A DNA stretch of 9,488 nt, from the IMG/VR virus record IMGVR_UViG_2778261027_000012; one strand, given 5' to 3'. The notes beneath the pieces were generated by a model. The model ran no database searches. It worked only from the letters and a program-made list of their open reading frames with translations, and had not been told where the DNA came from. Shown here piece after piece: positions 9,171-9,246 of this stretch (the first letter of the stretch is position 1; every line of letters begins with the position of its first letter). The stretch is from a virus (Duplodnaviria > Heunggongvirae > Uroviricota > Caudoviricetes). The translations under genes were made by a program, and so were the position numbers.

Positions 9171-9246
9171 CCGCCACTAGCCATCAGGAAAGAGCGTCAA
9201 CCCTTTAAGTTGAGTGTGCGAGGTTCGAGTCCCCGGTGGTGGTCCA
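9171..9246 (+). tRNA. tRNA-like element with degenerate D-arm and atypical anticodon loop (CCTTTAA); possible tRNA pseudogene
   Basis: Canonical 73+CCA length. Acceptor pairs 7/7 with one G-U; anticodon stem TCAAC/GTTGA perfect; T-arm GGTTCGAGTCC with 4/5 stem pairs; D-stem pairs only 2/4; position 33 is C and position 14 is T. Apparent anticodon TTT. Confidence 0.4.

What the first reader, a model, noticed from the sequence alone, without database searches (positions are those of the whole stretch)
9171..9246. Degenerate tRNA-like element between two intact phage tRNAs
It has exact tRNA length and a good acceptor stem, anticodon stem and T-arm, but a poorly paired D-stem (2/4), T at position 14, C at position 33 and an apparent UUU anticodon. 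In Stx-type phages the middle gene of the Ile2-Arg-Arg trio is a second Arg tRNA, so this may be a decaying or repurposed copy, or contain sequence errors.
Basis: seen in the sequence. Interest (0 to 1): 0.4.

Follow-up and report, generated by a model that had tools for sequence, protein, structure and literature searches.

The report
Broken lysine tRNA gene in prophage
The odd tRNA-like stretch is a real but damaged copy of a phage lysine tRNA gene, not an arginine tRNA and not a sequencing error, sitting in a defective E. coli prophage and most likely no longer working as a tRNA.

Summary
Window 9171-9246 is a 76-nt cloverleaf-like element with a UUU anticodon, C33, a 2/4 D stem, a 7/7 acceptor stem containing G3.U70, a 5/5 anticodon stem and an encoded CCA. 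ARAGORN calls it tRNA-Lys. The Rfam tRNA model scores it below threshold, and NCBI's annotation leaves it blank in every identical RefSeq record listed.

It is not a sequencing error: the D-arm allele is present in 224 of 5426 complete E. coli genomes. It is also not a decayed argN. Its direct parent is a 77-nt lambdoid-prophage tRNA-Lys(UUU), annotated as tRNA-Lys and scoring 44 bits. The window copy differs from it by loss of U12 in the D stem and by C70U. This Lys gene shares its acceptor, D and T arms with argN (Arg-UCG) but has a different anticodon arm.

The window is prophage PPompW of STEC O145:H28, which the literature describes as defective. O157:H7 carries an independently wrecked copy in the same array.

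Best reading: a tRNA-Lys pseudogene, possibly still an RNase P processing site. The intact parent sits next to a Thr(UGU) tRNA and lacks the PARIS AriB recognition determinants, which makes it a candidate nuclease-resistant rescue tRNA. Interest in the finding itself is low.

The parts
8209..8898 (+). Antiterminator Q gene upstream of the tRNA cluster
   Evidence: The ORF list has 8203-8898. RefSeq annotates the identical E2865 sequence as 'bacteriophage antitermination protein Q', L005 2150-2839, which maps to window 8209-8898.
8882..8988 (+). Promoter-like site (8882-8910, TTGCAA-17-TATATT) followed by a strong hairpin with U-runs on both strands (8959-8988). Position and form fit a pR'/tR' late promoter-terminator pair (inferred).
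   Evidence: Consensus scan. Assignment by analogy with lambda and 933W late-region organisation; not tested.
9056..9084 (+). Sigma-70-like promoter (TTGCAA-17-TATTAT) 10 nt upstream of the first tRNA; possible own promoter of the tRNA operon
   Evidence: Consensus scan, 9/12 matches. This is a consensus match only.
9094..9169 (+). tRNA-Ile2 (anticodon CAU), intact
   Evidence: ARAGORN. Rfam tRNA model 72.5 bits. NCBI annotation: tRNA-Ile.
9171..9246 (+). THE ELEMENT: a damaged allele of the lambdoid-prophage tRNA-Lys(UUU). U12 is deleted between 9181 and 9182. C70U at 9240 creates G3.U70. C33 (9203) and A51.C63 (9221/9233) are inherited from the parent allele.
9247..9259 (+). 13-nt spacer TTATCGGTATTCT, identical to the argN-argO spacer of O157-type arrays. 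It marks the start of the argO-type right half of the recombinant array.
   Evidence: Homology to Ile-Lys-Thr-Gly phages stops at 9246.
9260..9334 (+). tRNA-Arg (anticodon UCU, argO-type). It is followed by CUA instead of an encoded CCA (T at 9335).
   Evidence: ARAGORN. Rfam 68.1 bits. Comparison with L142 and L003, which encode CCA.
9350..9375 (+). Intrinsic-terminator-like hairpin GGCTCGC-TTTT-GCGGGCC followed by TTTTTTG, closing the tRNA operon
   Evidence: Conserved in E2865 and O157.

Best explanation
The element is a pseudogenised, or at least badly crippled, allele of a lambdoid-prophage tRNA-Lys(UUU) gene.

That gene and argN (tRNA-Arg UCG) of Stx-type phages share one acceptor/D/T-arm scaffold and occupy the same slot just downstream of Q and tRNA-Ile2. 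They carry different anticodon arms.

In the lineage of this window, the Ile2-Lys left half of an Ile2-Lys-Thr-Gly array was joined, at the 3' end of the shared scaffold, to the spacer-argO-terminator right half of an Ile2-argN-argO array. The lineage is the defective prophage PPompW of STEC O145:H28, also present in O26, O111, O103, O55:H7 and E2348/69. The Lys gene then, or around that time, lost U12 from its D stem and changed C70 to U.

The deletion leaves two Watson-Crick D-stem pairs and puts the cloverleaf about 8 kcal/mol above an alternative fold. The transcript most likely does not mature into a stable, chargeable L-shaped tRNA.

The acceptor/T-arm helix and CCA are intact. The element probably still serves, passively, as an RNase P site that separates tRNA-Ile2 (1 nt upstream) from tRNA-Arg. 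This last point is inferred.

Shown here: homology, the two lesions, population frequency, non-recognition by model-based callers, the recombinant array, the defective prophage context, and an independent wreck of the same gene in O157:H7. Inferred: loss of decoding function, and residual RNase P processing.
For: (1) Parentage. The element is 75/77 identical to the commonest Lys allele, which appears 31 times among 128 scaffold copies from viral contigs, scores 44.4 bits with the Rfam tRNA model and is annotated tRNA-Lys by NCBI. All other family members (Lys, Arg, others) have GCUC at 10-13, so GC-C is the derived state.

(2) Structural damage. The Rfam score drops from 44.4 bits to below 15.7. 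The cloverleaf is worth -15.1 to -15.4 kcal/mol against an MFE of -23.3. The parent has -22.3 against -25.0, and the canonical ECOR29 allele has -27.0, which is its MFE. NCBI's annotation, which uses tRNAscan-SE, never annotates this allele but does annotate the +U12 allele at the same 1-nt spacing.

(3) Relaxed selection in this context. The window is 99.9% identical over 9.4 kb to PPompW prophages. All PPompWs examined are reported to be defective, with multiple gene inactivations and no packaging (PMC8112680). The TerB gene just downstream has an internal stop in E2865 and CB9615. The neighbouring argO has lost its encoded CCA.

(4) Independent decay of the same gene. O157:H7 EDL933 has the same Ile2-X-spacer-argO array. 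Its X keeps the intact D stem and C70 but has lost the anticodon loop and gained T-arm lesions. By even-step sampling this remnant is in roughly 350-400 genomes. E24377A carries another allele that NCBI's annotation skips, with C4U, U8C and C11U.

(5) Not an error. The D-arm allele is in 224 of 5426 complete genomes, 221 of them with an exact match to the 46-nt probe.
Against: - There are no expression, processing or charging data.
- C70U keeps pairing (G.U), and no further lesion has accumulated in the element across 221 genomes. The whole 341-nt region is equally invariant, so this carries no weight either way.
- A 3-bp D stem with a bulged A23 (G10-C25, C11-G24, C12-G22) would keep A14, G18 and G19 in register. 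Tertiary contacts and modifications, which the energy model ignores, might rescue folding.
- The parent allele itself does not fold into a cloverleaf as its MFE, so MFE arguments are weak for this family.
- The U12-deleted allele also occurs with C70 in front of tRNA-Thr in one genome (L049 and L130). It has therefore either persisted through recombination or been copied by gene conversion.
Confidence: 0.75

Rival explanations
1. It is still a working, non-canonical tRNA-Lys(UUU). It folds with a 3-bp or bulged D stem, is charged by LysRS through its UUU anticodon, and supplies a lysine tRNA that host or satellite anticodon nucleases (PARIS AriB, PrrC, P2 Old) do not cut.
For: - Acceptor stem, anticodon arm, T arm, A37 and CCA are intact.
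- ARAGORN accepts it, and GenBank PPompW records annotate it as tRNA-Lys.
- C70U preserves pairing.
- It carries U36-A-A-G-U-U41 and C16. E. coli lysT has U36-A-A-U-C-A41 and U16, and T5 has U36-A-A-A-C-C41 and C16. U39A abolishes AriB cleavage, and A41C and U16C impair it (PMC12409363).
- The allele is found in three or more E. coli lineages.
Against: - Only 2 Watson-Crick D-stem pairs remain, and the bulged alternative gains 0.3 kcal/mol only.
- It is below threshold for Rfam and is not called in NCBI's annotation.
- It sits in a prophage that cannot make particles, so a counter-defence tRNA has no obvious beneficiary.
- Sister copies of the same gene are unambiguous wrecks.
Confidence: 0.15
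2. It is a repurposed or identity-switched tRNA. C70U created G3.U70, the major AlaRS identity element, on a UUU-anticodon tRNA. The RNA, or its intact-D-arm predecessor such as L142, would then insert Ala at Lys codons. In this reading the U12 deletion could be a secondary knock-out of a toxic mistranslator.
For: - G3.U70 is present in the window. It is also present in L142, an allele with an intact D arm annotated as tRNA-Lys in the same argO context.
- That G3.U70 alone can confer alanine acceptance on other tRNAs is established knowledge (Hou and Schimmel 1988; McClain and Foss 1988). I cite this from my own knowledge; it was not tested here.
Against: - The other AlaRS-favoured elements are absent: U73 instead of A73, and C1-G72 and C2-G71 instead of G-C pairs.
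- C-to-U at a C-G pair is the commonest neutral change in this family; five other acceptor pairs show it.
- Only three U70 alleles were seen (window, L142, L093), so there is no statistical support.
- The order of the two events is not resolved. L049 has the U12 deletion with C70.
Confidence: 0.04
3. It is a decayed copy of argN (the second Arg tRNA of the Ile2-Arg-Arg trio) whose anticodon drifted to UUU.
For: Same slot. Same acceptor, D-arm and T-loop scaffold as argN. Same downstream spacer and argO.
Against: - The anticodon arm is identical to that of the tRNA-Lys family. It differs from argN by two compensatory stem pairs (27-43 U-A against C-G, and 30-40 A-U against G-C) plus the loop.
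- Pair 7-66 and T-stem position 51 are also of the Lys type.
- Left-flank homology is to Ile-Lys-Thr-Gly phages, at 94.6% from 5619 up to exactly 9246.
Confidence: 0.03
4. It is an assembly or sequencing artefact in a normal tRNA gene.
For: The last ~70 bases of the window are visibly corrupted by over-called G.
Against: The element and its 341-nt surroundings match 222 complete-genome records at 99% identity or more, all 30 best-listed at 100%. The D-arm allele is in 224 genomes and in 15 viral-contig records.
Confidence: 0.01

Closest known systems
Lambdoid-prophage tRNA-Lys(UUU) with a C33 anticodon loop (e.g. NZ_CP035884.1 4528285-4528361; phages PhiR47_1, vB_EcoS-689R5, vB_EcoM-606R7), normally in an Ile2-Lys-Thr(UGU)-Gly(UCC) array downstream of Q
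   Same: 75 of 77 positions. Same 1-nt spacing after tRNA-Ile2. Same CCUUUAA loop (C33), same A51.C63, U73 and encoded CCA.
   Different: The window copy lacks U12 and has U70. It is followed by argO rather than Thr-Gly. It scores below 15.7 bits against 44.4 and is not annotated by NCBI.
argN, tRNA-Arg(UCG) of 933W/Sakai/Min27-type Stx phages (ileZ-argN-argO)
   Same: Same slot. Same scaffold: 5' CCGCCAY-UA-GCUC-AUCRGGA..., 3' GGUUCGAGUCYYCGRUGGCGGUCCA. Same downstream spacer and argO.
   Different: Different anticodon arm: CCAGC-CUUCGAA-GCUGG against UCAAC-CCUUUAA-GUUGA. Pair 7-66 is U-A against C-G. Position 51-63 is G.U against A.C. The spacer after Ile2 is 7 nt against 1 nt.
O157:H7 remnant in the same array (EDL933 NZ_CP120944.1; locus L138 1512-1577)
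   Same: Same parent Lys gene, same Ile2-X-TTATCGGTATTCT-argO arrangement, also not annotated by NCBI.
   Different: A different, independent set of lesions: D stem and C70 intact, but the anticodon loop is deleted (66 nt in all), with G53A and an inserted G in the T loop.
Phage T5 tRNA-Lys(UUU), the experimentally shown suppressor of PARIS (AriB) immunity
   Same: UUU anticodon. The AriB site U36AAUC|A41 is altered (T5 UAAACC; this family UAAGUU). C16 replaces U16.
   Different: Unrelated scaffold (G1-C72, A73). T5 has U33 and a shortened anticodon stem. Resistance and rescue are shown for T5 only. The window copy is in addition structurally damaged.
Phage 21 tRNA-Thr(UGU), shown to rescue cells from P2 Old (PMC12445682)
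   Same: A lambdoid-phage tRNA that replaces a nuclease-targeted host tRNA. The intact relatives of the window element sit directly upstream of a Thr(UGU) gene.
   Different: Different isoacceptor. I did not verify that the Thr gene in these arrays is identical to that of phage 21. The window array has lost the Thr gene altogether.

Membership tests
Canonical bacterial elongator tRNA (Rfam RF00005 / tRNAscan-SE standard) | 7-bp acceptor stem with an unpaired discriminator and 3' CCA | tested here: met
   CCGCCAC/GUGGUGG, 7/7 including G3.U70; U73; encoded CCA.
Canonical bacterial elongator tRNA (Rfam RF00005 / tRNAscan-SE standard) | D arm with a 3-4 bp stem, A14 and G18G19 in register | tested here: not met
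   Only G10-C25 and C11-G24 pair. There is a 1-nt deletion relative to all relatives. A bulged 3-bp alternative gains 0.3 kcal/mol.
Canonical bacterial elongator tRNA (Rfam RF00005 / tRNAscan-SE standard) | 5-bp anticodon stem, 7-nt loop with U33 and purine 37 | tested here: not met
   Stem 5/5, loop 7 nt and A37 are met, but position 33 is C. This is inherited from the parent allele. The ECOR29 allele has U33.
Canonical bacterial elongator tRNA (Rfam RF00005 / tRNAscan-SE standard) | Score above the curated threshold of a tRNA covariance model | tested here: not met
   No RF00005 hit at 29 bits. The best clan hit is tRNA-Sec at 15.7 bits, E = 1.9. NCBI's annotation leaves the allele unannotated. 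tRNAscan-SE itself could not be run.
Canonical bacterial elongator tRNA (Rfam RF00005 / tRNAscan-SE standard) | Mature, aminoacylated RNA present in cells | not testable with these tools
   Needs tRNA-seq or an acid-gel northern blot.
Lambdoid-prophage 'second-slot' tRNA scaffold (argN / Lys family) | Conserved 5' CCGYCAY-UA-GCUC-AUCRGGA and 3' GGUUCGAGUCYYCGRUGRYGGUCCA halves | tested here: met
   Pattern and alignment. The 5' half is met except for the deleted U12.
Lambdoid-prophage 'second-slot' tRNA scaffold (argN / Lys family) | Position immediately after tRNA-Ile2(CAU), downstream of the Q antiterminator or a DNA methyltransferase gene | tested here: met
Lambdoid-prophage 'second-slot' tRNA scaffold (argN / Lys family) | Cloverleaf supported by compensatory changes across the family | tested here: met
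   96.9% of cells paired, against 29-54% for slid controls. Four pairs changed on both sides: 4-69, 7-66, 27-43 and 30-40. Most double changes separate the Lys group from the Arg group, so they represent few independent events.
argN (tRNA-Arg UCG) of Stx phages | Anticodon UCG in the arm CCAGC-CUUCGAA-GCUGG | tested here: not met
   The window has UCAAC-CCUUUAA-GUUGA.
Nuclease-resistant phage 'rescue' tRNA-Lys(UUU) (T5 type, against PARIS AriB) | Same anticodon as the targeted host tRNA (UUU) | tested here: met
Nuclease-resistant phage 'rescue' tRNA-Lys(UUU) (T5 type, against PARIS AriB) | Loss of the AriB determinants U39, A41 and U16 | tested here: met
   G39, U41 and C16, against lysT U39, A41, U16 and T5 A39, C41, C16. 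Determinants are taken from PMC12409363.
Nuclease-resistant phage 'rescue' tRNA-Lys(UUU) (T5 type, against PARIS AriB) | Resistance to cleavage and rescue of translation or phage growth | not testable with these tools
   No experiment on this family was found in the papers read.
Nuclease-resistant phage 'rescue' tRNA-Lys(UUU) (T5 type, against PARIS AriB) | A structurally competent, chargeable tRNA body | tested here: not met
   Holds for the window allele only (D stem 2/4). The parent allele passes tRNA models.
AlaRS substrates (alanine identity) | G3.U70 wobble pair in the acceptor stem | tested here: met
   G at 9173 and U at 9240.
AlaRS substrates (alanine identity) | Supporting elements A73, G1-C72 and G2-C71 | tested here: not met
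   U73, C1-G72 and C2-G71.

The most novel reading that the evidence does not exclude
The window element is the fossil of a counter-defence tRNA. On this reading, lambdoid prophages keep one constant tRNA body in the slot after tRNA-Ile2 and exchange its anticodon arm: Lys-UUU, Arg-UCG, and several non-standard arms.

The intact Lys version has C33 next to the PrrC cut site. It has G39, U41 and C16 in place of the AriB determinants. It is paired in the same array with a Thr(UGU) gene.

It would then be a nuclease-resistant replacement for exactly the host tRNAs that PARIS AriB, P2 Old and PrrC destroy. That would extend the 'rescue tRNA' idea from large lytic phages (T5) to a tRNA-Lys carried by roughly 6% of complete E. 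coli genomes in temperate prophages. The window copy would show what happens to such a gene once its prophage is dead.
Probability: 0.3. Interest if true: 0.55.

Novelty: new member of a known kind. Interest (0 to 1): 0.25.

Why it matters
For the finding itself, little is at stake. It is a tRNA pseudogene in a defective prophage, and the practical points are about annotation:
- ARAGORN-based GenBank records of PPompW label it tRNA-Lys, while RefSeq omits it. tRNA counts for STEC prophages therefore depend on the caller.
- Reading the slot as 'a second Arg tRNA' would be wrong.

The wider context is more useful:
- The same scaffold carries Lys, Arg and odd anticodon arms.
- The intact Lys allele lacks every mapped PARIS AriB determinant and sits beside a Thr(UGU) gene. 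That gives a concrete, cheap experiment on whether temperate lambdoid phages use rescue tRNAs against satellite- and prophage-encoded tRNA nucleases.
- The window allele, the EDL933 remnant and the E24377A allele are ready-made natural loss-of-function controls.

Tried and rejected
- Sequencing error: rejected. The element is identical in complete genomes. Only the contig end, about 9417-9488, is corrupted.
- Direct descent from argN: rejected on the anticodon arm, pair 7-66 and left-flank homology.
- A different RNA family: an Rfam E-value scan of 9050-9400 gave only a 15.7-bit tRNA-Sec match (E = 1.9) over the element. Nothing else credible was found.
- MFE folding as a test of function: uninformative on its own. 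The annotated parent allele also fails to give a cloverleaf MFE. I used the energy gap between the cloverleaf and the MFE instead.
- Allele diversity of Lys against flanking Ile2, Thr, Gly and Arg genes in viral contigs, as a test of relaxed constraint: the sample was selected on the scaffold's 3' half and copies are not independent, so I drew no conclusion.
- Literature: no open-access paper holds ileZ, argN and argO together. Nothing was found on a lambdoid tRNA-Lys in the PARIS, OLD or eLife papers read, or in the term searches. The OLD paper's supplementary tRNA library is not held as text.
- One-genome-per-species scan: the scaffold appears only in Enterobacterales (E. coli, Shigella, Salmonella diarizonae, Citrobacter, Edwardsiella) plus one metagenome bin labelled 'Proteobacteria' that carries an Ile2-argN-argO array. 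Three other pattern hits are not tRNAs.

Full report
**What is at the coordinates**

ARAGORN finds three adjacent genes on the + strand:
- tRNA-Met/Ile2 (cat), 9094-9169
- tRNA-Lys (ttt), 9171-9246
- tRNA-Arg (tct), 9260-9334

The middle call coincides exactly with the finding. Read from the sequence, it has these features:
- A 7/7 acceptor stem, CCGCCAC/GUGGUGG, with G3.U70.
- A D stem of only two pairs, GCCA/GAGC.
- A perfect 5-bp anticodon stem, UCAAC/GUUGA.
- The loop CCUUUAA, which gives C33, UUU and A37.
- A T stem with one A51.C63 mismatch, and the T loop UUCGAGU.
- Discriminator U73 and an encoded CCA.

The Rfam tRNA model scores the two neighbours at 72.5 and 68.1 bits. It does not report the middle element at the 29-bit threshold. 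In a permissive scan the best clan match is tRNA-Sec at 15.7 bits, E = 1.9.

**It is not a sequencing error**

Window 9060-9400 matches 222 complete E. coli genome records at 99% identity or more, and all 30 best-listed records match at 100%. A 46-nt probe specific for the D-arm allele hits 224 of 5426 genomes, 221 of them exactly. These include O26, O111, O103, O145, O55:H7 CB9615 and EPEC E2348/69.

In all listed records, NCBI's annotation shows only tRNA-Ile and tRNA-Arg and leaves the middle element blank.

After a genuine G13 run, window ~9417-9488 departs from E2865 and O157 by wholesale replacement of bases with G.

**What it derives from**

The same search turned up relatives that match the window only up to position 9246 and in which NCBI's annotation does show a tRNA-Lys. 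In NZ_CP035884 the array is Ile2, Lys, Thr, Gly. Its Lys gene is 77 nt and differs from the window element at two places only. It has GCUCA where the window has GCCA, which is U12 deleted from the D stem. It has C70 where the window has U70.

That allele scores 44.4 bits with the Rfam tRNA model, the same as O157 argN. An ECOR29 allele with U33 and a perfect T stem scores 53.2.

The 'U at position 14' is therefore a register shift caused by the deletion. C33, the UUU anticodon and the A51.C63 mismatch are inherited from a widespread parent that callers accept.

**One scaffold, several anticodon arms**

I scanned IMG/VR for the 3' half of the element and recovered 128 copies together with the loci already held. 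They fall into these array types:
- Ile2-[Arg UCG]-Arg UCU: 56 copies. This is the 933W/O157 ileZ-argN-argO type.
- Ile2-[Lys UUU]-Thr UGU-Gly UCC: 42 complete copies plus truncated ones.
- Ile2-[Lys]-Arg UCU: the window type. All of these carry the deletion allele.
- A few copies with 81-82-nt non-standard middle arms.

Lys and argN share the acceptor stem, D arm and T loop. They differ in the whole anticodon arm, in pair 7-66 and at T-stem position 51-63.

On 29 distinct alleles the cloverleaf is 96.9% paired, against 29-54% for slid controls. Four pairs are changed on both sides. Most of those double changes separate the Lys group from the Arg group, so they represent few independent events.

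The element is thus a member of the argN scaffold family, but its direct parent is the Lys gene, not argN.

**The window array is a recombinant**

The whole window is 99.9% identical over 9.4 kb to the PPompW prophages of STEC O145:H28. Homology to a phage of the Ile-Lys-Thr-Gly type (vB_EcoS-689R5) runs from 5619 to exactly 9246.

From 9247 onward, the spacer TTATCGGTATTCT, argO and the terminator are those of the O157-type array. The junction lies at the 3' end of the shared scaffold.

A rare allele from a chicken isolate (L142) has the same array with an intact D stem, U70 and an argN-type A66, and is annotated tRNA-Lys. U70 is therefore also found on an allele with an intact D arm in this context. 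The deletion with C70 occurs in front of Thr in one genome (L049 and L130). The order of the two events is not resolved.

**Evidence that the copy is decaying**

1. The deletion costs the D stem. The cloverleaf is worth -15.1 to -15.4 kcal/mol against an alternative MFE of -23.3. The parent has -22.3 against -25.0, argN has -28.3 against -29.8, and the ECOR29 allele folds into the cloverleaf as its MFE at -27.0.
2. The published survey found all PPompWs to be defective, with multiple inactivated genes and no packaged DNA, including in E2348/69 (PMC8112680). The TerB gene just downstream has an internal stop in two genomes.
3. The neighbouring argO in this lineage is followed by CUA instead of CCA.
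4. The same gene has been wrecked independently elsewhere. EDL933 and, by even-step sampling, some 350-400 genomes carry the same Ile2-X-spacer-argO array. There X keeps U12 and C70 but has lost its anticodon loop. E24377A-type copies carry C4U, U8C and C11U and are also not annotated.

Intact-D-arm Lys in the argO context is rare: one of 40 evenly spaced rows.

**Limits of the evidence**

There are no data on expression or charging. The invariance of the allele across 221 genomes says nothing, because the whole 341-nt region is equally invariant. A bulged 3-bp D stem that keeps A14, G18 and G19 in register is conceivable.

I therefore put 0.75 on loss of decoding function and 0.15 on a still-working non-canonical tRNA-Lys.

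The acceptor/T-arm helix and CCA are intact, and tRNA-Ile2 ends one nucleotide upstream. The element probably still provides an RNase P site. This is an inference from the known minihelix requirements of RNase P and was not tested.

**Surroundings**

The region reads, in order:
- The Q antiterminator gene (8209-8898).
- A promoter-like site (8882-8910).
- A strong hairpin with U-runs on both strands (8959-8988).
- A second promoter-like site, TTGCAA-17-TATTAT (9056-9084), 10 nt before tRNA-Ile2.
- A terminator-like hairpin with a U-run (9350-9375) after tRNA-Arg.

This fits a small tRNA operon embedded in the Q-dependent late transcript, as in 933W-type phages. The promoter and terminator assignments are consensus matches only.

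**What the parent family may be for**

Published work gives the following:
[quoted passage not shown] U39A abolishes cleavage, and A41C and U16C impair it. tRNA-Thr(UGU) is the second prime target (PMC12409363).
- T5 escapes PARIS with its own tRNA-Lys (PMC11464382).
- P2 Old preferentially destroys tRNA-Thr(UGU), and the tRNA-Thr(UGU) of lambdoid phage 21 rescues cells (PMC12445682).

Direct comparison of the sequences:

| tRNA-Lys(UUU) | Positions 36-41 | Position 16 |
|---|---|---|
| E. coli lysT | UAAUCA | U |
| Phage T5 | UAAACC | C |
| Prophage family (incl. window) | UAAGUU | C |

The prophage family also has C33 next to the PrrC cut site.

The intact arrays thus combine a Lys(UUU) that lacks all mapped AriB determinants with a Thr(UGU). 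This is suggestive of a rescue-tRNA role but is untested. I found no paper that addresses it. It concerns the parent allele; the window copy is the broken version in a dead prophage.

**Verdict**

- It is a new member of a known kind, namely a phage tRNA pseudogene.
- The finding itself is of low interest. The family it comes from offers a moderately interesting, testable lead.

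Noticed in passing
window 9417-9488: After a genuine G13 homopolymer, the window diverges from E2865 and O157 by replacement of many bases with G. This is a read-end or assembly artefact at the contig end; the true sequence continues toward the TerB gene.
   Followed up: yes
window 9333-9337: The tRNA-Arg(UCU) gene is followed by CTA (T at 9335) where relatives L142 and L003 encode CCA. NCBI's annotation gives only 74 nt for it. It would need 3' trimming plus the CCA-adding enzyme.
   Followed up: partly
L138 1512-1577 (E. coli O157:H7 EDL933, NZ_CP120944.1): A 66-nt remnant of the same Lys gene sits in the same Ile2-X-argO array. Its D stem and C70 are intact, but the anticodon loop is deleted and the T arm is damaged. 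NCBI does not annotate it. By sampling it is present in roughly 350-400 complete genomes.
   Followed up: partly
L001 1535-1844; 42+ IMG/VR loci: The intact array is Ile2(CAU)-Lys(UUU)-Thr(UGU)-Gly(UCC). Lys(UUU) and Thr(UGU) are the two prime targets of PARIS AriB and are among the P2 Old substrates. The Lys gene has G39, U41, C16 and C33.
   Followed up: partly
L004 1610-1690; L030, L078; L144, L150, L151: The same acceptor/D/T scaffold carries non-standard middle arms: 81-82-nt versions with 11-13-nt loops (annotated 'tRNA-OTHER'), and 74-77-nt versions in Salmonella diarizonae, Citrobacter amalonaticus and Edwardsiella hoshinae that ARAGORN cannot assign. They may be decayed or may do something else.
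   Followed up: no
L142 1501-1577 (NZ_CP148440.1) and L093: G3.U70, the alanine identity pair, also occurs on an intact-D-arm Lys(UUU) allele annotated tRNA-Lys (with a C7.A66 mismatch), and on an Arg(UCG)/Lys chimera. These are candidates for mischarging tests.
   Followed up: no
L143 1501-1577 (E24377A, NC_009801.1): A Lys allele with C4U, U8C and C11U, so the near-universal U8 is lost. NCBI does not annotate it although it sits in an otherwise intact Ile-X-Thr-Gly array. The same allele appears 5 times in viral contigs.
   Followed up: partly
L001 1612-1688 and 1691-1766; IMG/VR copies: A.C mismatches recur in the T stems of these prophage tRNAs: Lys 51.63 and the modal Thr allele 52.62. 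They are conserved in the commonest alleles.
   Followed up: no
window 5661-5963: A sok antisense RNA (Rfam 103.9 bits, 5661-5810) overlaps a 70-aa hok-like ORF (5751-5963). This is a hok/sok toxin-antitoxin module in the prophage early/late junction region.
   Followed up: no
L005 (E2865) locus tags; GenBank LC567818-LC567841: The annotation of this element is inconsistent. ARAGORN-style GenBank PPompW records label it tRNA-Lys and RefSeq omits it. RefSeq locus tags skip one number (RS09445) between Q (RS09440) and tRNA-Ile (RS09450); the cause was not checked.
   Followed up: no
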